A stretch of DNA of 64,000 nucleotides from Chrysomallon squamiferum (taxonomy: Eukaryota > Animalia > Mollusca): contig CM022676.1 in assembly GCA_012295275.1 (NCBI GenBank), positions 16,492,001 to 16,556,000 of the forward strand, read 5' to 3'. Shown here one piece after another: positions 1,797-60,733 of this stretch. A program made the translations under genes and the position numbers. Below the pieces are notes generated by a model that saw only the letters and a list, made by a program, of their open reading frames with translations, did no database searches and was not told where the DNA came from. The number at the start of each line of letters is the position of its first letter. Within the stretch, counting starts at the first letter, position 1.

Positions 1797-1830
1797 GAAA
1801 TGGAAAAGACAAACATGAGTATGAAAAAAG
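1797..1830 (+). CDS. Gene A cytoplasmic exon 1 (GNGKDKHEYEKR)
   Basis: tttttcag / gtaatg, 34 nt, phase 1-2; paralog at 41751-41784. Confidence 0.85.
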
Positions 1831-2744: not shown

Positions 2745-2775
<31 letters not shown>

Positions 2776-2898
2776 TATAGATAGATAGATAGATAGATAG
2801 ATCATTTGACTGTAAATTGTAAGAAGGCTTTATGTAAATTTTGTTATTAAAATTAAAACATGAATTCACGTAGACATTTTGTCTGTTTCAAATCACAG

Positions 2899-2951
2899 AA
2901 CTGATCCAGAACCACAGTCTCCAACATACGAAAATCTTCCTTCTGAACCGG
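2899..2951 (+). CDS. Gene A cytoplasmic exon 2 (TDPEPQSPTYENLPSEP)
   Basis: aatcacag / gtaggt, 53 nt, phase 2-1; paralog at 43176-43228. Confidence 0.87.
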
Positions 2952-3553
2952 GTAGGTGCAACATTTTCTTAATAGCTATTTGAATACGCCTTACTTTACT
3001 AAACAGTATTCAATTCTGAAGGTTCAGTATATATTAAGATTCCTGGCAAGGTAATCCGGAAAAAATGAAGGGTGGTACACAAGGAAGTAATAAATGAACA
3101 AGTAAAGAAGGGGCCTGAAAAAATATTATGAAATAGTAATGACATAAAATGTTGTAATTTATATATTGGGCTAAAAACGTCTAAGGTTCTTTTTTTATTA
3201 CATGGTTAATTAATAGAACTAATTTGTATTATATATTCATATATGCTAGTATAAAATTTAGCATCTTTCTATGATAAATACAGATTATTTGTAAATTAAT
3301 ATTTTTTTAGTGTGATATGTTTTATCAGCGCCACAGATTAGTATTTGTCTTTGTAGTTGTAAATAGCAACCTTGTGATCATACTCTGTCACTTTTCATAT
3401 TTTCTCTTTTAAATTTTCTATACATTTTATTACTTATGGTTTATCAATGCAGTTTTGTTTGTCTGTTTCTTCTACGTTTAACTACTGATGTATGCATGAT
3501 TATTTCTGAAAAGTAACAAAACCATTTAAACATGTCTTATTTATTCTGTGTAG

Positions 3554-3636
3554 GTAACAACGCAGAACGAAGTGGGTCATCTGAACAGCATCCGTATGAA
3601 GTATTTGGAGTCGATGATAATGGACCAAAATATTAA
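3554..3636 (+). CDS. Gene A last coding exon (GNNAERSGSSEQHPYEVFGVDDNGPKY*)
   Basis: tgtgtag acceptor, frame continuous with preceding exons, TAA at 3634-3636; paralog starts at 43905. Confidence 0.85.
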
Positions 3637-3936
3637 AATATCTCTTTATAACTGTGTTTACTCAAAACTTCGAAACAATTTATTTTATTACTTTTACTGT
3701 ACATATATATACACATACATACATACATACGTACATACATACATAAATAATATATACATATGTATATATATATAAATATATATCTGTTTTGTAGATACGT
3801 TCATTCATTCCTACATATACACATATACGTACCGACATATATAGGTTAAACATTGGAAAACCCCAGCTAAATTCAGGAAATGAAATTATATAACAATTAT
3901 TCACTATTATTGATTTTTTAAAATCAAAACACCTAA

Positions 3937-9770: not shown

Positions 9771-9828
9771 ATGTCTTTATTTCAATATATTTGGATTTGT
9801 TTGCTTGTTATACCTACTGTTATTTCAG
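9771..9828 (+). CDS. Signal-peptide (leader) exon L1, intact: MSLFQYIWICLLVIPTVIS|
   Basis: gaaATG, 19 mostly hydrophobic codons plus 1 nt, CAG|gtacgt donor; phase 1 matches the first SRCR exon at 23047. Confidence 0.72.
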
Positions 9829-12689: not shown

Positions 12690-12747
12690 ATGTCTTTCTT
12701 TCCAATTATTTGTATTTATTTACTTGTTATACCCACTGTCATTTCAG
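12690..12747 (+). CDS. Signal-peptide (leader) exon L3, intact: MSFFPIICIYLLVIPTVIS|
   Basis: 58 nt, CAG|gtatgt donor, phase 1; closest intact leader to the SRCR exons. Confidence 0.72.
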
Positions 12748-22800: not shown

Positions 22801-23046
22801 AATCTTAGAGAACGGAATAATAATAGTTAATAAATACAATTATAAAGTTGAATTATCTGATCCTGTTTAACACAATAATTGTCAAATATATACAATATTA
22901 CAATGACAAAAACAGATTATCGGTATTTTCCTTTAACAAATATTCTTGCAAATGAAAAATATCATATTTCTGTATATATAGTTTTCTTTCTGAAGAAATT
23001 GCACTATTATAATTGACTGTCTTATATAAACCTGTTATTATTTCAG

Positions 23047-23191
23047 TACCAGTACGATTAGTGAATGGAAGAGGAATACCAACACAAGGTCGAGTTGAGA
23101 TTCAAGTAAACGGGACCTGGGGAACAATCTGTAGCAGTAGATTTGACAAAAAAGATGCTGGTGTTCTCTGTTCAATGTTGGGATTTAGTCG
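23047..23191 (+). CDS. Gene B SRCR1 exon a ([48 protein letters not shown])
   Basis: RLVNG..GRVEI..WGTIC SRCR signature; tttcag/gtaaaa; 145 nt, phase 1-2. Confidence 0.95.
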
Positions 23192-23351
23192 GTAAAAGAA
23201 AACAAATCTTTTGTACAATATTCCGTTTTACGAACGTATTATTGACTACTGCTTCTGTTCCTGCTGCTACTACTACTACTACAAATAGTACTTCTACTAC
23301 TACTACTACTACTGGGGCTACTAATTCTACTACTACTACTATATTAATCAG

Positions 23352-23470
23352 CCATTTGATCTGTGTCAGAGGTGTGTGTCTGACAATATAACTGTAGATA
23401 TTTCTGATAATCTGTGGTGAACGTTTTCACACAAGAGATGCTACTGTTCTCTGTTCAGTGATGACATTTT
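23352..23470 (+). pseudogene. Relic SRCR a-half exon in the intron (ICGERFHTRDATVLCSVMTF)
   Basis: Recognisable SRCR residues from 23410; the 5' part is disrupted by TGA and no clear donor is present. Confidence 0.7.
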
Positions 23471-24110
23471 GTGTCCGAAGTCGATGTTACTGTGTAACTG
23501 TTAACATTTCTCTATCAACTAACCAGTTGGTTTAAAATAATGACAAGTTTTTAATGTAAATTCTCCTTTTTCAAAAATACATTTATCATACATGCAACCT
23601 GCTTGATATCTGCAAATATTAGAGTAATCAAAATTAGTTTATTCTGTAATACTTTATTATTTTTATCTCTGATACTTATGTAAAGGATACTCCAAAACAC
23701 AGTTTTAATTAAGAAACAAAATGATCGATGGACAGGTTTCTTCCTACTTAAGAGGTTAACATTAAAACCTTTGCCTTTTTTGTGATTATAAAAGAGGAAA
23801 CAGTTTCCGTTATACTCTAACGCTTCAGCCGGTAAAAAACTGAAGAAAAATAAAAAAAAAAAATAAGCATACTTAGTGAAGTTCTTACAGCCAAGAATAT
23901 ATATTTGTTCACTCGCTATTTTGCCTTAAATAAATACCAGTCCAATAAAATAACTTAATAAGATAGATTCCGTCATTCTTCATTATCTAACAAATACTCG
24001 TTTCATTACAGCCTGATTCTAAAATATAAACTATCGAAATTTAATTGTGTTAAAATGCTTTCTTTAATAGATGATCAGCAATGTATCATGTTTTATCTGA
24101 TATATTTCAG

Positions 24111-24286
24111 TGACGGAGCAAAGACCTTCACAAGTTATCCATCATACTTTGGAGAAGGTAGAGGTCCAATATGGTTAGATACACTTCAGTGTGAAGGAAA
24201 TGAAGCATCTGTTGAACAGTGTAGTTTTGGTGCTTGGAGAAACAATCTATGTAGGCACAGTAACGATGTTGGGATACGTTGTCAAG
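24111..24286 (+). CDS. Gene B SRCR1 exon b (DGAKTF...FGEGRGPIWLDTLQCEGNE...CRHSNDVGIRCQ)
   Basis: FG.G.GPIWLD..C.G.E motif, 4 Cys; 176 nt, phase 2-1. Confidence 0.95.
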
Positions 24287-24594
24287 GTTCGTTACATAGA
24301 AGTCTAATATTTGTTGTATTTGTGTTTATTTGCGTCAGTATTGAGAAAAATCAACAAAATCGTTTTAATCGTTTTCCAAAGTAACCAAATCAAACCAAAG
24401 AATGAAAATATTCAAACACACAAACAGTAAAATAACGGCAGAACGACCCATACTTTTTTTTTTCTTCATTTTTGCTTATATAGTTTAAAAAATAAAGTGT
24501 CGCGAAAATAAGAAAAAAGTACACGGGTCTGTATAAGCAAAGGATTCTGTCAGTTTCAGAACACTAAAGTGAAACCTGTTATCATTTATTTCAG

Positions 24595-24739
24595 TATCTC
24601 TCAGACTAGTCAATGGTGGAGGTATTGAAACACAGGGTCGAGTTGAGATCAAACTTAACGATACATGGGGAACTGTCTGTGGTGACAAATTTGACGACAC
24701 AGAAGCAGGATTTATCTGCAGACTTTTAGGATTCAGTCC
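24595..24739 (+). CDS. Gene B SRCR2 exon a ([48 protein letters not shown])
   Basis: SRCR motif; tttcag/gtaaga; 145 nt. Confidence 0.95.
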
Positions 24740-24936
24740 GTAAGAATGTTTTAACTTTAGTAAAACTGGACAATTTAAAAACAGTAATAACATATCAGCA
24801 CGTTTAAATTTCTGACATACAAAGTAAATTGAAATTGGAAATTACGATTTGCGTTTATATTTACCCCGTAGTACCGTTCAATCAATATTTGTATAAACTA
24901 AGATCAGAGAACTCAGTTGTGTTTTGTAAATCCTAG

Positions 24937-25112
24937 ATTCAACGCAAAGACGTATAAGAATGCTCACTTTGGAGAAGGAACAGGACCAGTGTGGGTTGAT
25001 GATGTTAACTGTGTTCAAGATGAACATGGAGTGAATCACTGCTCTTTCTCTGACTGGGGTAAAAAAAACTGTAGTCATAAACAGGATTTGGGAATAAGCT
25101 GCATGCCTCAGA
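24937..25112 (+). CDS. Gene B SRCR2 exon b (FNAKTYKNAHFGEGTGPVWVDDVNC...CSHKQDLGISCMPQ)
   Basis: SRCR motif; cctag/gtatgt; 176 nt. Confidence 0.95.
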
Positions 25113-25761
25113 GTATGTTGTTTTTGTTTTGTTTGTTTAGTTGTATTATCTTTCCTTGCATTATTTAAAGGTGTACTTAAATTACAAGGAAAACGTTCAA
25201 TATAAAATGTCAAATTCAAAATGGAAGAACCACATGTGCTAGAAGTATGCGCTGTACTTTTCATATTCTTCGATTTATAAAACAACGCGGCGTGATATAG
25301 TTCATGCTCTCTCTGTCTGTTTGTTTGGCTTATCGATATCAGAAATAAAACTTAACTTTATAAATATGGTTTCCTATTTATGTATCTCTTAATGGAAGGA
25401 CTGAAGTTATTCGTCTTTCCATGGTATTGATATCGCATGATAATATTAATTATGTAGATGTACAAAGACAACATTAATTTCGAACCGGATCGTTAAAAAT
25501 ACAAATGAAATTTAGTAACGTGAACAAATTATCACCATCCGAATTCCGGTTGCCATGTACAAGTTTAAACGTAAATACATGGCTACATCTTGACACCATA
25601 CGTACATACAAAGAAACACACACACACAAATGCACACACAAACTTATATTCGTATGTATAAATCTGGAAAAAAATGTTCTTCTAAAATGTTAGTGATGGA
25701 TTCTTTATCAAGATATTTGTATAAAAAAATGTGTTTTGATCGTTTCTTGAACTGATTTCAG

Positions 25762-25906
25762 TTTCTGTTCGATTGGTCAACGGAAGAGGAATTGCAACAC
25801 GAGGCAGACTTGAAATAGAAAACAACGGGACATGGGGAACTGTCTGTGATAATGAATTTGACGACAGAGATGCTTCTGTCATCTGTTACATGCTGGGTTT
25901 CAGTCG
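25762..25906 (+). CDS. Gene B SRCR3 exon a ([48 protein letters not shown])
   Basis: SRCR motif; tttcag/gtaaat; 145 nt. Confidence 0.95.
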
Positions 25907-25929
25907 GTAAATAAATCTTTTCCTAAGTC

Positions 25930-25998
<69 letters not shown>

Positions 25999-26468
25999 TT
26001 AGCAGAAGAATGTTATATGGTTAATATATACTTTATTTTATAACCTTTTTCATTACTTAAATGATTGTTATACGTTCACGTACAATTCGAATTATATGAG
26101 ATAATATTGTTGTGGTTTCTCTTTACGTATCAAGTGATACTGGCAATTATATTGCTGCACATTACGTTATTGTTGTATATAAATCTTGTACAATAATATA
26201 AATGTTCACTTAGGAAACTCTAAAATTAGTATACAGTCTATTAATAAATTTGTGATGGAAAAGTACGGGTTCGAAAAGAAGTGAATTATGAAGCATAAAT
26301 ATTTATAAATTATTTTTTAAACGCATTAACCAAAATTTACAGAAAACGATTCGGGTATAAATTATTGTTTTGGGTTATTTCCCTTTTATTTTTTATTTTT
26401 ATTTTATTTTTTTGCCGGGAAGACTACTCCCTTTATAACATCAGGAATACGCCTTATCATTCTATTTT

Positions 26469-26524
<56 letters not shown>

Positions 26525-26608
26525 TTTATAAATTATAAGTTCCTGAGTAACATCGGGAATAAGCATTATTACTATATTCTGTAAACTAATTATTAACATT
26601 AATTTCAG

Positions 26609-26784
26609 TTTTGAAGCAAAATTCTATACAGCATCTCAATTTGGACAAGGCAGTGGACCTATCTGGCTTGATGGACTCGACTGTAAGGGAGATGAAGAAC
26701 GTGTAGACTATTGTTCATTCTCTACTTGGGGTGAAAACAACTGTAGTCATAATCAAGACGTGGGAATCGCCTGTTTGAATCGTT
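26609..26784 (+). CDS. Gene B SRCR3 exon b (FEAKFYTASQFGQGSGPIWLDGLDC...CSHNQDVGIACLNR)
   Basis: SRCR motif; tttcag/gtaagt; 176 nt. Confidence 0.95.
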
Positions 26785-27002
26785 GTAAGTAGTGACATGT
26801 AGCATTAGTAAAATTAATGACAACAAAATATTTAGTGAACAAACGAGATGTGCGAAATCTAGGAGATGTAACAAAACAAATCTGAAGATTTATGTTAATT
26901 AGGATGTCGTGTCTGTTCTTGTAATTGATGTATTTTCCATGTGTGACGACATCATGGTTCATATGATAATAAGACAATATTAAGAAATGGTTAAAAACAT
27001 AT

Positions 27003-28266
27003 TGTGACGGAGACGACATTCTCCTTTTTATTATGTAACGCGTGAGAATTATATAAGCTATCTGCGACGTACACAGTAGTTTCCTGTTTAATACATAATC
27101 AATATTAGATTTCCTCAGAAATTTTATAAGCTATAGTGAGATGTTCTTTTGGGAACAAAACGACGCCTCCATGTCTTCTAAAGTTCCAAAGAGTCTCGGC
27201 AGTACTCCCGGGGTAAGAATGTTAAGAAACATCCGATGTGTTTTCGTTGACAGAAAGAGGAAGATCAGTTTAACATCGTACAGGACAGACGTGCGAGCTA
27301 ACTGTCAGCTGGATAGTTATATAGATCCAACTGACTGAGCTAACTTTAAATTTCCACGGTTCTGTTTAAGTAACTGAAAGGCAGTTTGGTGTTTACTTTC
27401 TAACAATGTTCAATTTAAATACATACATACATACATATATATGAACTGAAGTAGTATAACCACTATTTTGGAGAATAGCTGGTAATCTGAGATCAGACTG
27501 TTAATATCTCTAAAACAGTGGGTGAAGAATAGTCGGAATCTGATGTGCTATTTTCCCTTGAGGGTTTAACATATTTAACGTGTCTGATGTGTTCACTTAT
27601 GTAATTTTGTGCCATAAAAATGTTTGTTGTGTTTCTAGTGATTGAACGTTGGCTGAATATAAATACTTATATAGCCTTGTTTCCTGAATACCCTTGGAGC
27701 CAAGCCAATACAGTGCGATATCCATGTATAGTTGCTACTGTTTTGAAGGAAGAGTTTTAATTCAGGAAGTTATAATTTGAATACGTGACGACGGTGCTAA
27801 TTTCAGATCACATTTGACTGCGTCATACTACATTGTTGTACCTATTGTAATGTTTCGGCCTTCGCCCTAGATTTGAAACGGAGACGAATCGTAAATACAA
27901 TTTTGTTGCAATTGTGAGCTTTATAAATGATATTGCAATATTTCTAGGTATTGTCACTGTTGTTCACAAGAAAACCAATCAGTTCTCTAGAATATCTTAA
28001 CGTGAAACAAAATGGATCCGTGTTGGATGAGCGTTGGATCCGTTCATATCAGTTCAAACAAAGCGCTCCGAATAACAAAACCTTCTTCAATTAGCATCCA
28101 ACAGACAATTGACCTCGACGAGGCAAAACCAGAAGGAGAAATTCGTGAACGGATTATAAATGAGGTTATACAGGTAGTTCTATTCCTCAGACAGATTGCT
28201 GAGAATTAAGCGTACACCAACAGTTAGCTTTAAAAGAATTAAAATTTGAAAGCGATCAAAGAACAT

Positions 28267-28362
<96 letters not shown>

Positions 28363-29232
28363 AGCAGAGCGGGGACTTGAGTTAAGATTACAAGATAATG
28401 ATATGAGACATTCATGAATAGAAGTTTTAACATGTCAGCAGGATACAGATCAGTATCAATATTTGAAGATGAAGAGATTGATACTTTTTTCCAGCTATTC
28501 GATCAATTAGCCAAAGAGTTCCACTGGCCTGAAACAACGTCGACATTGTTGGCCATGTTGAGATTTAGAGGTAAAGCTTGTGAGGTATATAATTAAGTAT
28601 CTGAGTGACCACAGTTGTACACAGTTTAAGTTGGTTAAGGCGGCTGTCTTAAGAATATATGAATTGCGTCCAGAAGCGTACCGGTTCACGTATAGTGAAT
28701 TGAAGGAACCTGAAGGTCAGTGTTATGTAGAATATTTCGCGAAAAATGCTGGATTATTTGAAGGCTTACGGCAATTGTTAGTACTACATGATCTTAAATA
28801 TGGGTTACCAGTTAATTTGCGCCTTCATTTATAGAACATGGGTTTATATATATAATACAGGATGCGGCGATCGTTCCTGATGATTTCATGTTAATTAATG
28901 AAACTCAATCAGGGCAAGGGAATTCCAGTCATCATGGAGAAAAAAATACATTTCAGGGGGGGGGGATTTCTGCATAATGCTAATCACTTGTGTTAGTCAA
29001 GTGGTCAGGCGAGAATTGTTCTTGGTTGTCAGAAACAGGAGAAACCACCAGTATCTCCACATGGGAGAACATTCTAATTGATTGGAAGATTTCTGATGAT
29101 GTTAACTTAAAGGATAACAAATTAACATCCAGTGGGTTCTTGACTCAGTTTGAACATACCCTAAGAGTTGTCGAAATTAGACGAGTAGCCTAATATTCTA
29201 AACTAACTGAAGGTTAGCAGGTGTATAGGATC
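27003..29232 (+). mobile_element. Decayed Gypsy-type LTR retrotransposon: putative LTR (about 27003-27774) and disrupted gag (about 28012-29030)
   Basis: Gag motifs IDTFFQLFDQLAKEFHWP..RGKACEVY, VKAAVLRIYELRPEAYR and LRQLLVLHDLKYGLP follow an (ER)n/(GA)n tract; the LTR-like start is TGTGACGG. The right boundary is uncertain. Confidence 0.85.
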
Positions 29233-30219
29233 TTGAGGAAATCAGGATATGGAATAGGTTTCATAATGCAGGCTAGGTATTTAGTGTCATGTTCGAATTT
29301 GTGTAGAAATGAGGAAACATAATCAAGATGATCTAGAACAGTCAGTCATGTCAGTGTAGGTCAGAAATGTTCATCGTTTTGAACTAACATATTTAGTATG
29401 TTTAGCAAAAATGTGAACATTAGTTTGGTCTAACTTGTTCCAGTCTATATGCGACAGAATCATGGTTCATCTGCTTGATGACTCTGTGAACTGCTCGTTT
29501 TCTTACACTTGTGTGCACTGTGACATGTAGCATTCTGATATTCAGACCATTGTCTGGTGGGATTATGTTGAGCACGAATGATACATTCCAGAAAGAAATA
29601 AAACACAACAAAAAACAACAACAAAGAAACAAAAGAAAAGAAGAAAAAAGCGTCAACCTGAATGACAGCAGTTCTGCTTTTCATCCACAGTATATTTGAA
29701 AGTAATACAACGTGTTGTTTGATCTGTTATCATAAACTCAGTTTCTTCAAATAAGCTTTTGAAAGAAATTCCACTAGCAGCTTCTGACATTTTTCTCACT
29801 TTAAATTGATTTTAATGGTTTTCGACAACACAATTATCATAAAAAGGCCTATATATCAGAATTATTATTTATTTGACAATTGTATTGATTAATGCCAAAA
29901 TAAAGTTGAATTATCTCACAGTATTGACCACAGCGAATGTGCAAGAAGGATAGTACGACTTAACAGTTAAAAATGTATATGTCTGTGTACGGGTTTATCT
30001 GTATATAGTTCAGCCTTTTAATACGTTAATATTAGAAACATTGATTGCTCATATTTATAGCAAAACTAGAGATAGAGCGACATTTTTATCTTACTCAACT
30101 GAACTTTTAATACCGAATTTCTGTTACATGTTTGTTAGTTGCTTTTTTGCTTTTTATTTGTTTAAACAAATCATACTATTCTTACTCACACGTCTTATAT
30201 AAATCTGTTATTATTTCAG

Positions 30220-30364
30220 TACAAGTACGATTAGTGAATGGAAGAGGAATACCAACACAAGGTCGAGTTGAGATTCAAGTAAACGGGACGTGGGGAACAA
30301 TTTGTAGAAATAGTTTTGACACAAAAGATGCTGGTGTTCTCTGTTCCATGATGGGATTTAGTCG
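30220..30364 (+). CDS. Gene B SRCR4 exon a ([48 protein letters not shown])
   Basis: SRCR motif; tttcag/gtaaaa; 145 nt. Confidence 0.95.
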
Positions 30365-30447
30365 GTAAAAAAACCCACATCTTTTCTGCAATATTCCGTT
30401 TTATAAACTATTATTGACTACTACTATTCCTACTACTACTCTATCTG

Positions 30448-30492
<45 letters not shown>

Positions 30493-30505
30493 TTATATCA
30501 ATCAG

Positions 30506-30620
30506 CCATTTGATCTGTCGGAGGTGTGTCTTACTATATAACTTTAGATATTTCTGATAATCTGTGATGAACGTTTTGACACAAGAGATGCTACTGTTCT
30601 CTGTTCAGTGATGACATTTT
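30506..30620 (+). pseudogene. Second copy of the relic SRCR a-half exon (I*SVGG...ICDERFDTRDATVLCSVMTF)
   Basis: Duplicate of 23352-23470. Confidence 0.7.
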
Positions 30621-31264
30621 TTGTCCGAAGTCGATGTTACTGTATAATTGTTAACATTTCTCTATCAACTAACCGGTTGGTTTAAGATAATGACACGTTT
30701 TTAATGTAAATTCTCCTTTTTTCAAAAATACAGTTATCACACTTTCAACGTGCTTGATATCTCCAGATGTTAGAGTAATCAAAACTAGCTAATTCCGTAT
30801 TACTTAATTATTTTGTATCTCTGATTGTTATGTGAACCATACTCGAAAAAACATTTTTAATTAAGAAACAAAATTATTGATTGACATGTTTCTTGCTACT
30901 TAAGAGGTTAGCATTAAAACCTTTGACTTTTTCATGATTATAAAAGAAGAAACAGTTTCTGTTATTCTCTCTATGACTTCAGACGGTATCGAACTGAGAA
31001 AAAAAAAAAAAAAAAATAAGCATACTTAGTGAAGATCTCACAGACAAGAATATGAATTTCTTTTCTCATTATTTTGCGTTAAATAAATACCGGTCCAATA
31101 AAAATAACTTAATAAGATAGATTCCGTCATTCTTCATTCTCTAACAAATACTCGTTTCATTATAGCCTGATTCTAAAATATAAACCATCGAAATTTAATT
31201 GTGTTAAAATGCTTTCTTTAATAGATAATCAGCAATGTATCATGTTTTATCTGATATATTTCAG

Positions 31265-31440
31265 TGACGGAGCAAAGACCTTCACAAGTTATCCAACATA
31301 CTTTGGAGAAGGTTCAGGTCAAATATGGTTACATACACTTGGGTGTGAAGGAAAAGAAACATCTGTTGAACAGTGCAGTTTTCCTGCTTGGAGAAACAAT
31401 CGATGTAGTCACAGGTCCGATGTTGGGATACGTTGTCAAG
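31265..31440 (+). CDS. Gene B SRCR4 exon b (...FGEGSGQIWLHTLGCEGKE...CSHRSDVGIRCQ)
   Basis: SRCR motif; tttcag/gttcgt; 176 nt. Confidence 0.95.
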
Positions 31441-31753
31441 GTTCGTTACATAGAAGTCTAATATTTGTTGTATTTGTGTTTATTTGCGTCAATATTGAGA
31501 AAAATCAACAAAATCGTTTTAATCGTTTTCCAAAGTAACCAAATCAAACCAAAGAATGAAAAATTTAAAAACACAAACAGTAAAATAACGGCAGGACGAC
31601 CCATACTTTCTTCTTTTTTTTTTTCATTTTTCCTTGTATAGTTAAAGAAATAATGTGTCGGGAAAATAAGAAAAAAAGTACATGGGTCTGTATAAGCAAA
31701 GGATTCTGTCAGTTTCAGAACACTAAAGTGAAACCTGTTATCATTTATTTCAG

Positions 31754-31898
31754 TATCTCTCAGACTAGTCAATGGTGGAGGTATTGAAACACAGGGTCGA
31801 GTTGAGATCAAACTTAACGATACATGGGGAACTGTCTGTGGTGACAAATTTGACGACACAGAAGCAGGATTTATCTGCAGACTTTTAGGATTCAGTCC
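31754..31898 (+). CDS. Gene B SRCR5 exon a (appears identical to SRCR2a)
   Basis: 145 nt; same splice sites as 24595-24739. Confidence 0.95.
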
Positions 31899-32095
31899 GT
31901 AAGAATGTTTTAACTTTAGTAAAACTGGACAATTTAAAAACAGTAATAACATATCAGCACGTTTAAATTTCTGACATACAAAGTAAATTGAAATTGGAAA
32001 TTACGATTTGCGTTTATATTTACCCCGTAGTACCGTTCGATCAATATTTGTATAAACTAAGATCAGACAACTCAGTTGTGTTTTGTAAATCCTAG

Positions 32096-32271
32096 ATTCA
32101 ACGCAAAGACGTATAAGAATGCTCACTTTGGAGAAGGAACAGGACCAGTGTGGGTTGATGATGTTAACTGTGTTCAAGATGAACATGGAGTGAATCACTG
32201 TTCTTTCTCTGACTGGGGTAAAAAAAACTGTAATCATAAACAGGATTTGGGAATAAGCTGCATGCCTCAGA
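32096..32271 (+). CDS. Gene B SRCR5 exon b
   Basis: 176 nt; 2 nt differences from SRCR2b. Confidence 0.95.
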
Positions 32272-32913
32272 GTATGTTGTTTTTGTTTTGTTTGTTTAGT
32301 TGTATTATCTTTCCTTGCATTATTTAAAGGTGTACTTAAATTACAAGGAAAACGTTCAATATAAAATGTCAAATTCAAAATGGAAGAACCACATGTGCTA
32401 GAAGTATGCGCTGTACTTTTCATATTCTTCGATTTATAAAACAACGCGGCGCGATATAGTTCATGCTCTCTCTGTCTGTTTGTTTGGCTTATCGATATCA
32501 GAAATAAAACTTAACTTTATAAATATGGTTTCCTATTTATGTATCTCTTAATGGAAGGACTGAAGTTATTCGTCTTTCCATGGTATTGATATCATGGTAA
32601 TTTAATTATGTAGATGTACAAAGACAAAATTAATTTCGAACCGGATCGTTAAAAATACAAATGAAATTTAGTAACGTGAACAAATTATCACCATCCGAAT
32701 TCCGGTTGCCATGTACAAGTTTAAACGTAAATACATGGCTACATCTTCACACCATACGTACATACAAAGACAGACACACACATGCACACACAAACTTATA
32801 TTCGTATGTATAAATCTGGAAAAAAATGTTCTTCTAAAATGTTAGTGATGGATTCTTTATCAAGATATTTGTATAAAAAAATGTGTTTTGATCGTTTCTT
32901 GAATTGATTTCAG

Positions 32914-33058
32914 TTTCTGTTCGATTGGTCAACGGAAGAGGAATTGCAACACGAGGCAGACTTGAAATAGAAAACAACGGGACATGGGGAACTGTCTGTG
33001 ATAATGAATTTGACGACAGAGATGCTTCTGTCATCTGTTACATGCTGGGTTTCAGTCG
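32914..33058 (+). CDS. Gene B SRCR6 exon a (appears identical to SRCR3a)
   Basis: 145 nt; tttcag/gtaaat. Confidence 0.95.
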
Positions 33059-33081
33059 GTAAATAAATCTTTTCCTAAGTC

Positions 33082-33149
<68 letters not shown>

Positions 33150-33305
33150 TACTACTACTACTACTACTACTACTAGTACTACTACTATTATTTATTTATT
33201 TATTTATTTATTATTATTATTTTTATAAATTATAAGTTCCTGAGTGACATCGGGAATAAGCATTATTACTATATTCTGTAAACTAATTATTAACATTAAT
33301 TTCAG

Positions 33306-33481
33306 TTTTGAAGCAAAATTCTATACAGCATCTCAGTTTGGACAAGGCAGTGGACCTATTTGGCTTGATGGACTTGACTGTAAGGGAGATGAAGAACGTG
33401 TAGACTATTGTTCATTCCCAACTTGGGGTGAAAACAACTGTAGTCATAATCAAGACGTGGGAATTAGCTGTTTGAATCGCT
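33306..33481 (+). CDS. Gene B SRCR6 exon b
   Basis: 176 nt; tttcag/gtaagt; 2 aa differences from SRCR3b. Confidence 0.95.
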
Positions 33482-33696
33482 GTAAGTAGTGACATGTAGC
33501 ATTAGTAAAATTAATGACAACAAAATATTTAGTGAACAAACGAGATGTGCGAAATCTAGATGTAACAAAACAAATCTGAAGACTTATGCTAATTAGGTTT
33601 TCGTGTCTGTTCTTGTAATTGATGTATTTTCCATGTGTGACGACATCATGGTTCATATGATAATAAGACAATATTAAGAAATGGTTAAAAACATAT

Positions 33697-34511
33697 TGTG
33701 ACGGAGACGACATTCTCCTTTTTATTATGTAACGCGTAAGAATTATATAAGCTATCTGCGACGTACACAGTAGTTTCCTGTTTAATACATAATCAATATT
33801 AGATTTCCTCAGAAATTTTATAAGCTATAGTGACGTCTCCGTGTCTTCTGTTTAAGTAACTGAAAGGCAGTTTGGTGTTTACTTTCTAACAATGTTCAAT
33901 TTAAATACATACATACATACATATATATATGAACTGAAGTAGTATAACCATTATTTTGGAGAATAGCTGGTAATCTGAGATCAGACTGTTATTATCTCTA
34001 CAACAGTGGGTGAAGAATAGTCGGAATCTGATGTGCTATTTTCCCTTGAGAGTTTAACATATTTAACGTGTCTGATATGTTCACTTATGTAATTTTGTGC
34101 CATAAAAATGTTTGTTGTGTTTCTAGTGATTGAAGGTTTGCTGAATAAAAATACTTATATAGCCTTGTTTCCTGAATACCCTTGGAGCCAAGCCAATACA
34201 GTGCGATATCCATGTATAGTTGCTACTGTTTTGAAGGAAGAGTTTTACGCCCGTTCAGGAGGTTATAATTTGAATACGTGACGACGGTGCTAATTTCAGA
34301 TCACATTTGACTGCGTCATACTACATTGTTGTACCTATTGTAATGTTTCGGCCTTCGCCCGGGATTTGAAACGGAGACGAATCATAAATACAATATTGTT
34401 GCAATTGTGGGTTTTATAAATTATATTGCAATATTTCTAGGTATTGTCATTGTTGTTCACAAGAAAACCAATCAGTACTCTAGAACATCTTAACGTGAAT
34501 CAAAATGGATC
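33697..34511 (+). mobile_element. Duplicated copy of the Gypsy LTR/leader region with gag missing
   Basis: Near-identical to 27003-28018 apart from internal gaps; joins at GGATC to sequence matching 29228 onward. Confidence 0.7.
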
Positions 34512-35498
34512 TTGAGGAAATCAGGATATGGAATAGGTTTCATAATGCAGGCTAGGTATTTAGTGTCATGCTCGAATTTTTGTAGAAATGAGGAAACATA
34601 ATGAAGATGATATAACACAGTGAGTCATGTTAGTTTTGGTCAGAAATGCTCATCCTTTTGAACTCACATATTTAGTATGTTTAGTAAAAATGTGAACATT
34701 AGTTTGTCTGACTTGTTCCAATCTATATGCGACAGAATCATGGTTTATCTGCTTGATGACTCTGTGAACTGCTGGTTTTCTTACACTTGACTGCACTGTC
34801 TTGTGTTACTCTGTTGCACACGAATGATATATTACCAGAAGACACATAAAAAAAAAAAAAAAACAGAAAACCAAAAAAAAAAAAACGTTAAAGTGAATGA
34901 CAGGAGTACTGCTTTTCATGAACAGTATCTTTGAAAGCAATACAACGTGTTGTTTTATCTGTTATCACAAAATCAGTTTTTTGAAGTAGGCTTTTGAAAG
35001 AAATTCCACTAGCAGCTTCTGACACTTATTAAATGCTCTGACTTTAAATTTATTATTATTATTTTCGATCAGACGATTGTCACAAAATGCCTATATATCA
35101 GAATTATTATTTATTTTACAATTTCATTTATTAATGCCGAAATAAAGTTGAATTATCTCATAGTATTGATTATAGCTATTGTGAATCAAGGAGAGTACGT
35201 CTTAACAGTTAAAAGTTATATGTATGTGCTCGGGTGTATATTTCAACCTTTTAGTATATTAATATTAGAAACATTGGTTGCCGATGTTTATAGCAATACT
35301 ACAGATAGAGCGACATCTTTATCTTACTCAACTTTACCTTTGTTACCGAATATCTGTTACATAATTTTCTTTACAAGGGAAATGATATATGACTATATAC
35401 ATGTGTGTTTCTCTTTTGTTTTGTTCGTTGTTGTTTTTGTATTAAACAAACCATTATATTCTTACTAACAGATCTTATATAACCTATTATTATTTTAG

Positions 35499-35643
35499 TA
35501 CCAGTACGATTAGTGAATGGACGAGGAAAACCAACACATGGTCGAGTTGAGATTCAAGTAAACGGGACGTGGGGAACAATCTGTGATGATGGTTTTGATG
35601 AGAAAGATGCTTCAGTTTTATGTCACATGTTAGGATTTAGTCG
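35499..35643 (+). CDS. Gene B SRCR7 exon a ([48 protein letters not shown])
   Basis: SRCR motif with canonical CDD; ttttag/gtaatt; 145 nt. Confidence 0.95.
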
Positions 35644-35837
35644 GTAATTGCTTCATTTATGTACATAATTACTTACTTACTTTCATACTTAGTTTGTGAA
35701 CGAGAATATTTTATACAGATGTAACTGATTTTACTGAGAATGAAAGTTAGTGACGATGTTTACGTGAAATACTTTTCGACATGATTATAATAATAATAAT
35801 AATAAAAATAACAAGAATGATAATAATGATAATAATG

Positions 35838-35911
<74 letters not shown>

Positions 35912-36238
35912 TGCTATGAGAAAAAGAAGAAAACAAAATAGCAAATACAACAAAAAGTAACAGCAATAATAATTTCTAGCAATGTTGATCTTGAGCTTTG
36001 TAGGAAATATATTCAAGTCGTCTTTGTATAATAAAATTTCGCTGGCGATATTTACACTATCCTTTTGGTAGCAAAACATACATATTAAACATAGTTGAAA
36101 TCACTTAGAAAGTAAAAAATGTCTTCTTGAAACGTCAGGACTACGAGAAGGTATGTGAAGGCGTTGTGCAAACAATGTTGAATATTCATTTTACTGTACA
36201 TATTATTTATTTTAAAAGGAATATTAATTTTGTTTAAG

Positions 36239-36408
36239 TTTTGGTGCAAATCAAGATAAAACTGCTCGCTTTGGAGAGGGAACAGGAGAAATATGGATTG
36301 ATGATCTGAGATGTGATGGAGATGAAGACAGTGTTGAACAGTGTTCATTTCCTGGCTGGAGAAACCACTACTGTGGTCACTGGAACGATGCTGCAATCAG
36401 CTGTCAAT
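36239..36408 (+). CDS. Gene B SRCR7 exon b (FGANQDKTARFGEGTGEIWIDDLRCDGDEDSVEQCSFPGWRNHYCGHWNDAAISCQ)
   Basis: SRCR motif; tttaag/gtcagt; 170 nt, phase 2-1. Confidence 0.9.
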
Positions 36409-37716
36409 GTCAGTTTACATGTGATATTTATTTTATTTTATTTTTATTTAACTGTTTATCCGTAACAAAATGTTTTAGCGTGTTGTCATCAAAATTGTCC
36501 TTCTTGTGTTTAATGTTGTTGTACCGAAGTCTGTATCTAACTTTATTTGCCTTCAATAAGAACTAAAACAAAACAAAACAATATCAGGATTGGGTACAAT
36601 AGTTAATAAACAAACTAGGTTCAAAATAATCTAAATTAAAATGAGTTATATTAATGATGCAATCGTTTCGTATTTATTAGTTTAGTTGTTTGTTTGTTTG
36701 CTTGGTTTTCGTTTGTTTATTTGTTTCTTTGTTTGTGTGTTGATTTGTAATTCACGTAAGAATTATTATAGGCTGTTAGAGATAATCATATACCATAACG
36801 ATGGTTACAACAAAGGAAACTCATTGCTGAAATTTTACAGCCAGTCTTGTTGACATATAAATTGTAACTAAAATATATGTGACAATTTATTTTATTTTAT
36901 GTTATTTAATTTACCTGTTTATCAGTGACAAAAGGTTATATTTATAAGTTTAATTTTGTAATAATCAGCTTCTCACTAAATAGTTTGACTTTTTACATCC
37001 ACAAGCTTATTTTCGAATATTCTAATCACCATCTTACATTCTGTCTTTTATTTACTTTCTGGATGGGGAAACCTTACACTCAAATGTCATTATCCGTTAG
37101 ATGTCTCTAGTAGCAACGGCATACATTACGTTATGTGATTCAAGATTGTCTTTACTTATGAATATAGTTAGTTTGTATTAATTAATCCATAAATTAATTA
37201 ATTTATTGATATGCAGTGTGGTTCTATTTTAAATTTCTTTATTTTTTCATCATGTGAAAATTTGTGAATGTCATAACATTATATAGTGATGAATATATGA
37301 CTGTATTTTATTCTTATTTTTCCTGATATATGTTATACATACTTTCTGCAGTTTAAAGGTCCATTTCGCTTATACAAATAGTAATAATCAAATTTCTATT
37401 TCCATTTATTCTTCTTTTCTGTATGTATTTTATAACGGCTGGACATACTGCAGAGCTGTACGAAATTCCATCTGTTCAAATGAAACATCTATCTTATTTA
37501 CTTTAAAGCTATCTTCAGATACATTAAACCTGCAGCAAATATCAAATTTAATAATTGTTTTTGTGTTTTAATTTTACTTTCCATAAGAGATTTTTTTTTT
37601 TCTTCTGACTGTAATACATTAATTCACTGAGACCATACCTTTCATTTGCTGTTATAATGATACTATTTATTTATTTATTTATTTATTTATTTATTCATTT
37701 GTATTGGTCATCTCAG

Positions 37717-37802
37717 CAGAAATCAGACACGACAAACATTTACATGTCCAGCAAATAGTTCTGAGCATTCAGAAAGTAACCAGTTCCAGCTCACAGTTCT
37801 TT
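37717..37802 (+). pseudogene. Orphan C-terminal half-Ig exon (RNQTRQTFTCPANSSEHSESNQFQLTVL), phase 2-1, with no intact partner exon found
   Basis: ctcag(cag) acceptor, gtaagt donor, Ig F/G-strand pattern; the phase is incompatible with SRCR7b. Confidence 0.55.
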
Positions 37803-39415: not shown

Positions 39416-39694
39416 ACCAAACTTCTATTTCATCTTTGACGTTGAACTCAATTTCTACAAAGTTAACAGTTGATGAGCTGACTCCCATGACTCTGAGATG
39501 TGAAGTTGACAGTAATCCAGCATCTCACATCAAACTGTTAAACAGATCTCAGATTCTACGTGAAGTGAACAACTCCAAGTCAGTGGAGTACAGCTGGAAT
39601 GAAGCTGGATGTCTGGATACAGGATTTTACACTTGTGAAGCAGGAAACAACATCAAGTCTGATGTCAGTCAAAGCGTGCAGCTTGTTGTTAAAT
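39416..39694 (+). CDS. Gene B Ig-like domain exon (QTSISS...MTLRCEVDSNPAS...CLDTGFYTCEAGN...VQLVVK)
   Basis: L-x-C-x4-NP and D-x-G-x-Y-x-C motifs; ttgcag/gtaact; 279 nt, phase 1-1. Confidence 0.93.
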
Positions 39695-39909: not shown

Positions 39910-40209
39910 GTCCACCGAGGATTCCTTCCAATGTGAACATAAAGAGAATCAGGTCTTCTGCCATCTCAGTGTCTTGGACAGAGGAATTTAACGGCGGCTT
40001 CGTGCAAACTTTCATTGTGCAGTACAGAGAAAGTACTTCAGCACAGTGGAACAACGTCACAGAGAAATTTCTAGAACGAGGTCTACATACAACCCATACA
40101 ACAGTGATAGCATCTCTGAAATCAGACACGAAGTATCTTGTGAGGATTTTGGCTTATAACAAATACGGAGATAAAGGTTTTACAGATGAGAGAGCTATTT
40201 TGATGACAG
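39910..40209 (+). CDS. Gene B fibronectin type III exon (PPRIPSNV...VSWTEEFNGGFVQTFIVQYR...LKSDTKYLVRILAYNKYG...)
   Basis: FN3 W / NGG / L..T.Y..R..A.N..G pattern; acaag/gtacct; 300 nt, phase 1-1. Confidence 0.93.
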
Positions 40210-41205: not shown

Positions 41206-41319
41206 ATGACGAGTCTAATGAAAATTTGATAGCAGTGGCTGCTGGATCTGTATCAGCGATTCTCGTTTTAACTCTTTTTGTTGTCGCTATTGTCTTCATG
41301 TGCCATAGACTGAGAAGAG
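41206..41319 (+). CDS. Gene B transmembrane exon (DDESNENLIAVAAGSVSAILVLTLFVVAIVFMCHRLRR)
   Basis: tttcag/gttcgt; 114 nt; hydrophobic helix followed by basic residues. Confidence 0.92.
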
Positions 41320-41750: not shown

Positions 41751-41784
41751 GAAATGCAAAAGATGAACATGTGCATGAAACAAG
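41751..41784 (+). CDS. Gene B cytoplasmic exon 1 (GNAKDEHVHETR)
   Basis: tttttag/gtaaca; 34 nt. Confidence 0.85.
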
Positions 41785-43175
41785 GTAACACTGACTCATA
41801 GTAGGAATTAATATATTTTATTATTTTTCTAACAGTGTATGTGTTGATGAATATGTCTTCATGTATAACAGTGACTGTACATTTTATTGCTTATAAATAA
41901 TGAATATATTTATTAGGGAAACGAAACGTTAAGATGTTCCTGATAAAATATCCTATCATGTTTTAATGTCAAAGGCGGTTATTTTTGTGTTGAAATGAAA
42001 CTTGTTGTTCTAAATAACGAACACGGTTCAGAGTTTCTATAACCAGTGAATCTGTAACAGTAAGTAATTCCCGATTGATGTCCCAAATATTTCTGTGTAG
42101 TAGCCTCTGGTTTATTGATAATCTAGGGAGAGATGACACATTCCGGTCTGGACGTAGGCCTCTCTCTCTCGCTAGGCAATACTGGGCTGTAGTCGTCAAT
42201 CTTGGTGAATTTTACACCACGCATCTTAAATGCGTTGATTGATTAATACATCTTTCTCTGAAGTCAGAAAACTGATCCTTGCAGATCCAGAATGTGTTAT
42301 ACTAAATATTTATAACCATATTCTGTAATGGTAATCTACCAGTAGGGGATTTTTCTGATATGATGTTTGCTGCTTTCAAAGTCCAATCTTGACCACCCAG
42401 TTTTCATTAAGAGAGTGAACGAAGCGGTGCATCACAAGTTAGATCCCTGTTTTCTGTTCAGACGATCCGCCTGTCTTGTAGCTGAATCCAATATCTTGAA
42501 TCTATTTGTTTCTCTTTGTATGTGTGTTTATTTGTGTATATTGTATGACCATTGTGTTTATATGTATATCTATCTGTGATGTGTGTATATGTCGCTATGT
42601 GATGTATGCTTTTCTTTCTGTCTGTATGTGATATGTATATGACGTCTGCCTCTGTTCTCCTCTTTGTCGTGTTTCACACAGAAATATTCAACTGTGCAAG
42701 AAAGCAATATCACATAAAATGACGAAATAAAATGAGTGTCACTTCAGTACAGATCGTGAAGAATGAGTGATTACATTTATTTCATGTAACATTATTCCTA
42801 TAAATAATGCAGATATAACCGAGATATTTTAATTAGTTGTCTGATAGTGTTTCCTTTATGTATGCATTATATATGTAAATATTTGTGTATGTTATGTCAT
42901 TATCCAACAATTCACAGTTACAGCATTCAGCAATTTGCTTTTACATAGATATTTATTTATTTTTATACATATTATTTTTCTTTCTGTTTCTTATGTGTAT
43001 CTTATTTTAATTGGTTGATCAATAACTGTATTGTTCTTATTATTGTTTTTGTTATTGCTCTTTTTGTTATTATTACAAAGAAATCACTTAATCTTTAATT
43101 GTGAGTAGTCTATAAATGTTATAATTAAAACTGAAAAAGCTACCACTTAGAACATGTGTCTCTTTCAAATCACAG

Positions 43176-43228
43176 GAACGTTTCTGAACCGCGGTCTCGA
43201 ACGTACGACAACCTTGCTTTTGAGCCTG
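43176..43228 (+). CDS. Gene B cytoplasmic exon 2 (NVSEPRSRTYDNLAFEP)
   Basis: aatcacag/gtaagt; 53 nt. Confidence 0.87.
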
Positions 43229-43904
43229 GTAAGTGCAATATTTTCTAAATGTTTATTAGAAGACGCCTTACTTTAATGAAAGCTGTTTAAATTATGCTCG
43301 TTCAATACATATTAAGACATCAGGAAAGAATGAATGAAGCTTCTAAAGGTAGTGATCAATGAACAAGAAAATAAGGGAGTATGAAACAGAATGGTGAAAA
43401 GTAATAATGAAATAATAATAATATAAAAAAGTCGTCATTGATATACTGGGCTAAGAACGTGTGAGTTATTTTGCATGACGTTAATGAGACAAGATCTAAT
43501 TTATATTATCTCCTCAGATACGCAAAGTTTAATATGTGTGAGTGATAAATACAGAGTGTTTATAAACTAATATTTGTGCAGTATGACAGCTTCTTTTATA
43601 AGCACCATAAACCAATTGCTATCTTTATAGCTGTGTAAATTAGAATCTGGTGATGTTAGGCGGTATATCGCGTTTGACATTTTTTTTCTCTGTGTCACTG
43701 CTGTTTTTTTATTTATTATTATTATTTATTTTTTATGTGCGTGTATGTAGATATATATGTATACACACATATATATTACTTTATTTAATAATCTGTTGTT
43801 GTTGTTGTTTTTTATTACTTCTACGTTTAATTGTTAATGTATGGCTTACTGTTTTTGAAACGAAACATAAATACGTATATATATATATTTTTTTTTTTTT
43901 GTAG

Positions 43905-43933
43905 GGAACAGTCCAGAACCGTATCTGTATTAA
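43905..43933 (+). CDS. Gene B last coding exon (GNSPEPYLY*)
   Basis: tttgtag acceptor; TAA at 43931-43933; an in-frame relic VLGVDDNGRTN* continues to 43969. Confidence 0.83.
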
Positions 43934-45059
43934 GTACTTGGTGTCGATGATAATGGACGAACTAATTAATGTATCTCATCGAAACACCTTATTATGTCAC
44001 TTTTATCACACACACATACACAAATAGACACCTATACACACAGATTTCCATATATAGGACACATATTATACCACCTATTCACCATTATTGAATTTTATTA
44101 TTCAGCAAAGCTAGTTAAATATGTATGTTTTTCCTTTTCATACAAGAACGCCTTTAGAGCCATTTAAAAAAAGTAATAATTGTATAATTTCGATACTCAT
44201 GTTATGTTTACATCAGGACAATATGTGTAGTATACAGTGTTTGTTGGTATATTTTATGTGCTACAATCACAGTCTAGTAAAATTGTGATTAACTGTGTCT
44301 ATTGTGATTCTGCTTAAAATATATCTAATAGAATTGTGATTAAGTGTGTCTAGTAAGATTCTCATTAAACAAAGTCTAGTACGAAAAATGTGTGGCGTTG
44401 ATTTTTTGTGCGGACACATGCACTAAACTCTCGGACTTGAGGATAGTAAATTATAGTGATGATGAGTTACTATCGCACAGAACAATACTTTCTAAAAAAG
44501 AGACTTGATTATTATCCACCGAACATAATGCAGTCTAGCAAATATGTTTATAGTTTTATTGTTTGTCGTCATAGCAAAATACAATTGAAAATAACATAGA
44601 ATAAAATAAAAATAAAAACTCAGTGATAAGCATTATAACAAATTTCCTTTCTTTACTTACTACAAGAGTTGTGTAACGACAGGCCACACAAATTTGCCTG
44701 TAACAGCAATGTGTCCTAAACATTTCCACAACAATCACATTTACAAAATGTTCTGAGCATCTTAATCCAGTTGTGCTTCTGGCATGGCTATCGTCTTCAA
44801 GTCGATGCTATTTAAATATCACCTCATCTAGCGGACGTCAAAACAATCAACTAAAGACTGAATTACATCCGAAATTACTATAACCTTAGACAGTCTTAAC
44901 ATTTCTGTAAACTTGACTGTAACAGGTTGTAGCTGTCAAATCACTGGTGAAAACAGGTCTATACAGTGATACTGAATTAGTTTGGTATAATCAGTTATAT
45001 GTTACACATATATCTGTATGACACATTTCTCTTAATAATCATCTACAACTACATCATTT

Positions 45060-57400: not shown

Positions 57401-57518
57401 GTTACGCGAGTATCATTTGAGTAATTTGTGTTAGGAGTTTAAATCAGTTTCAGATGAATGACTCTGTATTTTACTGCTAGAAATCAGACGCCGAATTATA
57501 TATATATATATATATATA

Positions 57519-58613: not shown

Positions 58614-58675
<62 letters not shown>

Positions 58676-60685: not shown

Positions 60686-60733
<48 letters not shown>

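What the first reader, a model, noticed from the sequence alone, without database searches (positions are those of the whole stretch)
24111..31440. Burst of nonsynonymous change between SRCR1 and SRCR4 while flanking introns and sister domains are near-identical
By hand count, exons 1b and 4b differ at 17 of 176 nt: 16 lie in 12 amino-acid-changing codons and only 1 is synonymous (TGT/TGC). The 170 intron nt upstream differ by about 4 substitutions plus 1 indel, and the 120 nt downstream by 1. SRCR2 vs 5 differ by 1 aa and SRCR3 vs 6 by 2 aa (with 5 silent codon changes). An exon diverging several-fold faster than its introns is the signature expected of positive selection on a ligand-binding domain.
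Basis: partly seen in the sequence, partly recalled or inferred. Interest (0 to 1): 0.85.

Follow-up and report, generated by a model that had tools for sequence, protein, structure and literature searches.

The report
Diverging binding face in SRCR repeat
In a gene for a predicted animal cell-surface receptor, two duplicated scavenger-receptor domains differ at five of the six residues that form the binding site in solved relatives, likely because selection favoured different binding partners while gene conversion likely kept most of the surrounding DNA almost identical.

Summary
The counts are right: exons 1b/4b differ at 17 of 176 nt, 16 nonsynonymous and 1 synonymous. The intron contrast is not. 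Only 170 nt upstream and 120 nt downstream are near-identical. The rest of intron 1a-1b differs at 71 of 591 sites (12%), and another duplicated intron at 132 of 909. The 7-kb triplet duplication is therefore older and looks patchily homogenised, and exon 1b diverges no faster than unconverted intron (p=0.42). Whole-exon dN/dS is 3.6-5.9, significant in only 1 of 6 codon fits. A sharper signal survives. Five of the six positions matching the surface cation/ligand site of SALSA/DMBT1 differ between SRCR1 and SRCR4, against 18 of 105 overall (omega 5-10, p 0.001-0.005; codon-count p 0.003-0.014 at 10-16% divergence), while the scaffold is spared. Both domains have lost the acidic cluster. Such domains in other proteins also change faster there, so relaxed constraint or import from a paralog remains possible. 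Verdict: likely diversifying selection on the binding face under gene conversion. This is a known kind of pattern, from one pair, unproven.

The parts
12690..12747 (+). Candidate signal-peptide exon (a second intact copy lies at 9771-9828)
   Evidence: ATG, hydrophobic 19 aa, phase-1 GT donor; gives an open frame with the 14 SRCR exons, 766 codons, 0 stops; which copy is used is not shown
23019..30191 (+). Duplication unit, copy A (SRCR1-3 plus following intron)
   Evidence: self-BLAST and global alignment
30192..35470 (+). Duplication unit, copy B (SRCR4-6 plus following intron)
   Evidence: identity to A begins 28 nt before exon 4a
23047..23191 (+). Exon 1a; codons 29-31 and 34 differ from 4a; codons 29 and 30 match SALSA D1019/D1020
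   Evidence: Pfam SRCR E=3.9e-11
23582..23925 (+). Old, unhomogenised intron segment, 54 of 343 sites differ
   Evidence: segmentation
23926..24159 (+). Low-divergence patch upstream of and entering exon 1b, 6 of 234
   Evidence: penalty 4-5; merged at stricter penalties
24111..24286 (+). Exon 1b; divergent core 24160-24263 (16 of 104); codons 23, 24, 46, 51 match SALSA D1058, D1059, N1081, E1086
   Evidence: Pfam SRCR E=5.6e-13
24264..24412 (+). Low-divergence patch, 1 of 148
24413..24524 (+). Purely intronic divergence island, 11 of 112 (control)
24525..26638 (+). Homogenised block with exons 2a (24595-24739), 2b (24937-25112), 3a (25762-25906); 12 of 1523 aligned sites differ
26609..26784 (+). 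Exon 3b, a mainly synonymous divergence island against 6b (control)
30220..30364 (+). Exon 4a
31265..31440 (+). Exon 4b
   Evidence: Pfam SRCR E=1.7e-12
31754..33481 (+). Exons 5a (31754-31898), 5b (32096-32271), 6a (32914-33058), 6b (33306-33481)
35499..36408 (+). SRCR7: exons 7a (35499-35643) and 7b (36239-36408); keeps four aspartates at the ligand site
39416..39694 (+). Ig-domain exon
   Evidence: Pfam Ig_2 E=3.3e-8
39910..40209 (+). Fibronectin type III exon
   Evidence: Pfam fn3 E=2.6e-11
41206..41319 (+). Predicted transmembrane exon
   Evidence: hydrophobic run followed by basic residues; only weak, below-cutoff Pfam TM-segment hits
41751..43933 (+). Predicted cytoplasmic tail exons 41751-41784, 43176-43228 (Tyr motif YDNL), 43905-43933 (early stop)
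   Evidence: splice sites and homology to the upstream paralog's tail

Best explanation
SRCR1 and SRCR4 are the two copies of an internal three-domain tandem duplication in a predicted SRCR7-Ig-FN3 membrane receptor, likely homogenised in patches by gene conversion, and their amino-acid differences are concentrated on the canonical ligand-binding face, likely because diversifying selection keeps two binding specificities. Shown: the duplication, the mosaic of divergence (0.7-16% by segment), 5 of 6 ligand-site positions changed, the scaffold spared, and loss of the acidic cation cluster in both domains (SRCR1 S,S,D,T,L,N; SRCR4 R,N,H,T,R,S). Inferred: unconverted DNA marks an age of about 12-15% divergence, and conversion between the copies erased differences over SRCR2-3 and in two short tracts that stop at the edges of the exon 1b core, because tracts crossing the core would remove one specificity (the opsin exon-5 model). 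Also inferred: having lost Ca2+ bridging, these domains would bind anionic ligands directly, since 6 of the 18 changes move an arginine (3 in each copy). Whether the 16 changes are old and protected or arose in a burst after one 470-nt conversion is unresolved; the single synonymous change leans toward a recent burst (P 0.03-0.15 under the old age).
For: Ligand-site mapping: SALSA residues from PMC7043408. One numbering offset fits both exon alignments to chain 6sa5, and the consensus of 1049 other SRCR domains at the six columns is D,D,D,D,N,E. Enrichment: 5 of 6 v 18 of 105, hypergeometric p=5e-4; among 60 non-conserved positions p=0.004. Weighted by position rates from 204 close pairs in 90 other proteins, p=0.0013; 2 of 63 pairs with 14-24 differences reach 5 or more. 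Neutral DNA simulation: p=0.003-0.004 at 10-12% divergence, 0.011 at 15%. Fixed-class codon model: omega 4.7-10 at the six sites (p 0.001-0.005), 0.14-0.28 at conserved sites, 0.9-1.9 at other variable sites. Only 1 of 13 non-ligand changes hits the 37 family core columns (p=0.014), with no stop or frameshift, which argues against a pseudogene. N:S of SRCR1/4 (22:4) differs from sister pairs (4:7), p=0.006. 9 of 17 differences are GC-neutral and the rest split 5:3, which argues against GC-biased conversion.
Against: One pair, six sites. I noticed the clustering before reading the paper that fixes the site list, so the test is only partly a priori. Whole-exon and whole-domain omega are not significantly above 1. 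Fully neutral divergence at 10-15% gives 16+ N with 1 or fewer S in 11-13% of simulations. Four codons carry adjacent double changes (5 adjacent pairs v 1.6 expected), which inflate such tests; without b51 the site test is p=0.014-0.037 at 12-16%. In other proteins, pairs that have both lost the acidic cluster change 2.5 times faster at these sites (7 pairs; 1.8 times in 32 pairs with 2 or fewer acids). Scaled to this pair that gives p about 0.05 (hand calculation). Among SRCR2, 3 and 7 the six sites are not enriched (3-4 of 6, p 0.24-0.59). At the BIC penalty the exon-1b peak is not a separate segment. Expression, ligand and orthologues are unknown.
Confidence: 0.6

Rival explanations
1. Relaxed constraint in an unconverted island. 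The SRCR1/4 ancestor lost its cation site, the former ligand residues and surface loops became free, and the exon core simply kept the duplication's old divergence while chance tracts converted its flanks.
For: Exon core 15.4% equals old intron segments of 13-16%. Variable-site omega is 0.91-0.98 when neutral divergence is set to 0.13. An intronic island of the same size lies 150 nt away. Acid-less SRCR pairs elsewhere also change fast at these sites.
Against: Relaxation caps omega at 1, but the six sites give 4.7-5.4 even at divergence 0.13 (p 0.003-0.005). Only 4 synonymous changes in 72 sites (P 0.03-0.06 at 12-13.5%).
Confidence: 0.2
2. Exon-limited import. A tract of about 105-125 nt in exon 1b or 4b was copied from another member of a large SRCR family, so the differences are the donor's history and were not gained between these two copies.
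For: 763-1007 contigs per run lie on 3 kb of copy A at 82% or more. Several related contigs span the exon and its flanks with 10-18% other letters. At 24161, 24205 and 24255 most summed depth carries the 4b letter (only the best-supported rows were shown, 791 hidden). Exon 3b/6b shows a synonymous island bounded by its exon. Two neighbouring paralogous genes are cut by the window ends.
Against: A donor 12-15% away should bring 3-4 synonymous changes to the core and 1 is seen (P 0.10-0.15). The ligand-site clustering extends to exon 1a, 1 kb away, which would need a second tract. Import only moves the selection question to the donor.
Confidence: 0.15
3. Copies A and B are two divergent alleles placed in tandem by the assembly, and the pattern is balancing selection between alleles.
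For: No contig could span the A-B junction. At 23693 runs X3 and X4 show only the copy-B letter (contigs show presence, not absence).
Against: The intron before exon 4a matches the intron before 7a (14.5% different) and not the one before 1a (53%), as unequal crossover between SRCR1 and SRCR7 predicts. Gap-free copy-A-type contigs over about 25073-25470 occur in all 4 runs laid.
Confidence: 0.05

Closest known systems
Peak of divergence under interlocus gene conversion (human red/green opsin exon 5; Drosophila transporter pair). PMC3924837 section 3.2 read whole plus passages; PMC2588116 passages
   Same: A tandem duplicate with homogenised flanks and an exon-sized island rich in amino-acid changes at functionally implicated residues.
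   Different: Here the duplicate is a domain triplet inside one gene. The homogenised flanks are short (150-230 nt) and sit in a block that is otherwise 9-16% diverged. No orthologue was available to show that the peak is stable across species.
SALSA/DMBT1 SRCR cation-binding site, shared with MARCO, CD163, CD6 (PMC7043408, parts 1-3 of 6 read)
   Same: Same domain family, and the same six surface positions are where the changes cluster. The buried site-1 aspartates are kept. The paper notes that CD6-CD166 uses this face without calcium.
   Different: Six cysteines, not eight. SRCR1 keeps 1 and SRCR4 keeps 0 acidic residues of six (140 of 1049 other domains have 1 or fewer). The C-terminus is Ig-FN3-TM-tail, not CUB-ZP, so this is not a DMBT1 orthologue by architecture.
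Tandemly expanded invertebrate SRCR families (sponge and sea urchin, PMC10855680 passages; a gastropod with up to 65 tandem paralogues, PMC7142155 passages; review PMC7308585 passages)
   Same: Tandem gene array, domain-level duplication of multi-domain units, and SRCR combined with Ig and FN3.
   Different: The passages seen give counts, architecture and expression, with no site-level selection or conversion analysis. The window's organism was not established; no named relative was found (best mean identity 50% or less).
Conversion-fed diversity in MHC, self-incompatibility and plant R genes (PMC3924837 section 3.2)
   Same: Many paralogues as possible donors, and variation concentrated at the binding surface.
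   Different: No donor tract was identified here.

Membership tests
Group A SRCR domain | Match to Pfam PF00530 | tested here: met
   exons 1a, 1b, 4b above the curated cut-off
Group A SRCR domain | Six conserved cysteines (three bridges per PMC7043408) | tested here: met
   6 Cys in 7 of 7 domains
Cation-bridging SRCR (SALSA/MARCO/CD163 type) | Acidic/amide residues at D1019, D1020, D1058, D1059, N1081, E1086 equivalents | tested here: not met
   SRCR1 S,S,D,T,L,N; SRCR4 R,N,H,T,R,S; SRCR7 D,D,D,D,Y,N
DMBT1/SALSA orthologues | [quoted passage not shown] | tested here: not met
   exons after SRCR7 are Ig, FN3, TM, tail
Divergence peak under gene conversion | Local divergence well above immediate flanks | tested here: met
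   17/176 v 5/290, p=1.6e-4; not a separate segment at the BIC penalty
Divergence peak under gene conversion | Conversion shown in the flanks | tested here: inconclusive
   mosaic of 0.7-16%; at 23995 and 24061 copies A and B share a letter that most related contigs lack; no outgroup tree
Divergence peak under gene conversion | Peak sequences group by orthologue across species or individuals | not testable with these tools
   no genome or orthologue held
Positive selection (omega > 1) | Exon- or domain-wide dN/dS significantly above 1 | tested here: inconclusive
   1b/4b omega 3.6-5.9, p<0.05 in 1 of 6 fits; SRCR1/4 omega 1.2-1.9, 0 of 6
Positive selection (omega > 1) | omega above 1 at a pre-defined site class | tested here: met
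   six ligand sites, 4 of 4 fits p 0.001-0.005; weaker against acid-less SRCR pairs (about 0.05)
Functional receptor | Spliced expression and ligand binding | not tested
   open frame and intact GT/AG only

The most novel reading that the evidence does not exclude
A lineage of SRCR domains has swapped the ancient calcium-bridged acidic site for a calcium-free, arginine-patterned face that is reshuffled under selection. Exon-sized gene conversion among a very large paralogue family supplies and spreads variants, giving an invertebrate SRCR-Ig-FN3 signalling receptor MHC-like binding-site diversification.
Probability: 0.25. Interest if true: 0.65.

Novelty: new member of a known kind. Interest (0 to 1): 0.42.

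Why it matters
If true, it names the residues that change specificity in an invertebrate SRCR receptor, and offers a natural pair (83% identical, differing on one face) for testing whether SRCR domains that lost the cation site bind ligands directly. It is also a caution: in tandem duplicates, comparing an exon with its nearest intron measures gene conversion, not rate of evolution. Selection on receptor binding surfaces and divergence peaks under conversion are both established. Four searches of the held library (0 papers; 8 listings, titles and abstract starts only, one read in passages) showed no site-level report for the SRCR cation face in an invertebrate. That library lacks most subscription papers.

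Tried and rejected
No whole genome is held, so codeml/HyPhy/GENECONV-type tests on paralogues could not be run. Word-based protein searches with exons 1b+4b (near and longer lengths) and with the FN3 exon found nothing. A metagenome scan gave 1 locus from 247 pattern matches, whose translation is not an SRCR. The HMMER search gave 150 listed proteins of 9283 hits, none above 50% mean identity. These were used only as a family control: 1049 of 1236 domains kept as near-full, pairs limited to 70-97% identity and made disjoint. Per-site allele and paralogue states across the exon beyond the three rows shown were not obtained. Polarising with SRCR7 put changes on both branches (7, 7, 3 unresolved in the b exon) but conflicts with the contig majority at 24205, so direction is left open. 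No structure was predicted because the domain is split by an intron; mapping rests on sequence alignment. GC-biased conversion was rejected. A pseudogene was rejected as unlikely. No earlier findings exist for this place or these words. Multinucleotide bias is cited from a search listing only (10.1101/165969). Supplements of the papers were not opened; paralogue tables there could bear on the family comparison.
Full report
Setting. The window is AT-rich (30% G+C), intron-rich DNA with no genome held. A gene on the + strand reads: signal exon (12690-12747, or the copy at 9771-9828), seven SRCR domains of two exons each (23047-36408), Ig, FN3, a predicted transmembrane exon and a short tyrosine-bearing tail. 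The signal exon and 14 SRCR exons splice to 766 open codons. The tail of one paralogue lies at 1135-3640 and the 5' part of another at about 54300-64000. SRCR1-3 and SRCR4-6 form a tandem duplication, 23019-30191 and 30192-35470. The intron before exon 4a resembles the one before 7a and not the one before 1a (14.5% v 53% different), which fits unequal crossover between SRCR1 and SRCR7 (inference). The organism was not established.

Observation. All hand counts hold. Exon 1b v 4b: 17 of 176 nt, 16 N and 1 S, dN 0.128, dS 0.026. The exon exceeds its nearest flanks (5 of 290; p=1.6e-4). The flanks are not typical, however. Intron 23345-23940 differs at 71 of 591 sites, and the exon does not differ from that (p=0.42). 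Segmentation gives 15.7% (23582-23925), 2.6% (23926-24159), 15.4% (24160-24263, the exon core), 0.7% (24264-24412), 9.8% (24413-24524, pure intron), 0.8% (24525-26638) and about 3% beyond. At the BIC penalty the whole SRCR1 block merges into one 8.7% segment. The duplication therefore looks old, with younger-looking patches, the usual mark of interlocus gene conversion (PMC3924837, section 3.2 and passages; PMC2588116 passages). Two controls show that islands need no amino-acid excess: the intronic island, and exon 3b/6b with 6 synonymous differences in 36 sites against 6 of 444 in its flanks (p=8e-5).

Whole-exon selection tests. Fisher one-sided p=0.076. GY94 omega is 3.6-5.9 with p from 0.033 to 0.167, below 0.05 in 1 of 6 fits. 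For the whole domain omega is 1.2-1.9, significant in 0 of 6. The sister pairs give 0.16-0.23, significantly below 1 in 6 of 6. Counting the four double-change codons as single events gives p=0.18. Neutral simulation at 10-15% divergence reproduces 16+ N with at most 1 S in 11-13% of runs. Family-like purifying selection is excluded (omega 0.2-0.4: p from 1e-5 to 0.01). The exon is clearly unlike its sisters (N:S 22:4 v 4:7, p=0.006), but these counts alone cannot separate omega=1 from omega>1.

Where the changes sit. PMC7043408 (parts 1-3 of 6 read) places two surface cations of SALSA SRCR8 on D1019, D1020, E1086 and on D1020, D1058, D1059, N1081, shows that D1019A and D1020A abolish binding, and reports the same face in MARCO, CD6 and CD163. 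Exon 1b aligns without gaps to chain 6sa5 (11-57 to 79-125) and exon 1a with one gap (2-45 to 26-68). One offset maps the six residues to a29, a30, b23, b24, b46, b51. The consensus of 1049 unrelated SRCR domains at those columns is D, D, D, D, N, E, which confirms the mapping. Five of the six differ between SRCR1 and SRCR4, against 18 of 105 overall (p=5e-4; 0.004 among non-conserved positions), and 10 of the 14 non-Cys, non-His positions in the three surrounding loops differ. A fixed-class codon model gives omega 4.7-10 at the six sites (p 0.001-0.005 in 4 of 4 fits, two with neutral divergence fixed at 0.13), 0.14-0.28 at 45 conserved sites and 0.9-1.9 at 54 others. Codon-level counts, which ignore multiple hits, give p=0.004-0.014 at 12-16% divergence, and 0.014-0.037 without b51. 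In 204 close domain pairs from 90 other proteins these sites change at near-average rates; the weighted null is p=0.0013, and 2 of 63 comparable pairs reach five. The scaffold is spared: 1 of 13 other changes falls in 37 core columns.

Results against. I saw the clustering before fixing the site list. Both domains have already lost the acidic cluster (1 and 0 acids of six, v 4 in SRCR7). In other proteins, pairs that keep four or more acids change at 0.71 times the average at these sites (135 pairs), while pairs with at most one acid change at 2.5 times (7 pairs). SRCR1/4 is at 4.9 times, which against that small control is only p about 0.05 (hand calculation). Those control pairs may themselves be selected. 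Among SRCR2, 3 and 7 there is no enrichment. Public DNA runs hold many related copies: 763-1007 contigs per run on 3 kb, several spanning exon 1b with its flanks at 10-18% difference, and the 4b letter is the majority at the three exon sites shown (40 rows shown, 791 hidden; the tool warns that summed depth is no copy number). Donors for exon-limited conversion therefore exist. At those three sites some depth is left for other letters in all four runs, compatible with the 1b letters being real and not assembly errors (inference).

Mechanism. Most likely: after the triplet duplicated, conversion kept SRCR2/5 and most of SRCR3/6 alike, whereas SRCR1 and SRCR4 were held apart, or driven apart, at the binding face. 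Six of 18 changes move an arginine (a29, b46, b50 in SRCR4; a31, b17, b48 in SRCR1), so direct, calcium-free binding of anionic microbial or matrix ligands with different charge patterns is predicted. This is untested. Two of the three amino-acid changes in the sister pairs hit positions also changed in SRCR1/4 (b40, b48; p 0.08-0.11), a weak echo. I put selection on the ligand face at about 0.6, relaxed constraint at 0.2, paralogue import at 0.15 and allelic mis-assembly at 0.05.

Verdict. A real and better-localised signal than first argued, resting on one pair and six sites. It is a new example of two known things: divergence peaks under gene conversion, and binding-site diversification in receptor families. 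Interest 0.42.

Noticed in passing
window 43905-43972 v 3554-3636: The last tail exon stops early (TAA after PYLY), cutting a second tyrosine motif that the upstream paralogue keeps; neighbouring receptors may signal differently.
   Followed up: partly
window 9771, 11360, 12690, 17650, 54370, 61700: Six copies of the signal-peptide exon region. Two are intact (9771-9828, 12690-12747); the others lack an intact ATG frame or donor. They may be remnants of lost paralogues or alternative first exons.
   Followed up: partly
window 23413-23472 and 30563-30619: A decayed fragment of an SRCR a-type exon inside intron 1a-1b in both copies.
   Followed up: no
window 28018-29227 and 27138-27359: Insertions present only in copy A. 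The larger has broken frames that recall a retrotransposon gag (recalled; two frames gave no Pfam hit) and an AG repeat.
   Followed up: partly
window 37060-37140 and 37720-37802: Two short frames that look like decayed halves of an extra Ig domain between SRCR7 and the intact Ig exon; the splice phases do not fit.
   Followed up: no
window 23693, 23985, 24009, 24409-24410, 24478: Runs differ in whether they carry the copy-A letter, hinting that conversion between the copies is polymorphic among individuals; contigs cannot prove absence.
   Followed up: partly
window 26609-26784 v 33306-33481: Exon 3b/6b is an island of mostly synonymous divergence, with one change at the same position (b40) as in 1b/4b; it may be a second selection-protected island or a paralogue import.
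   Followed up: partly
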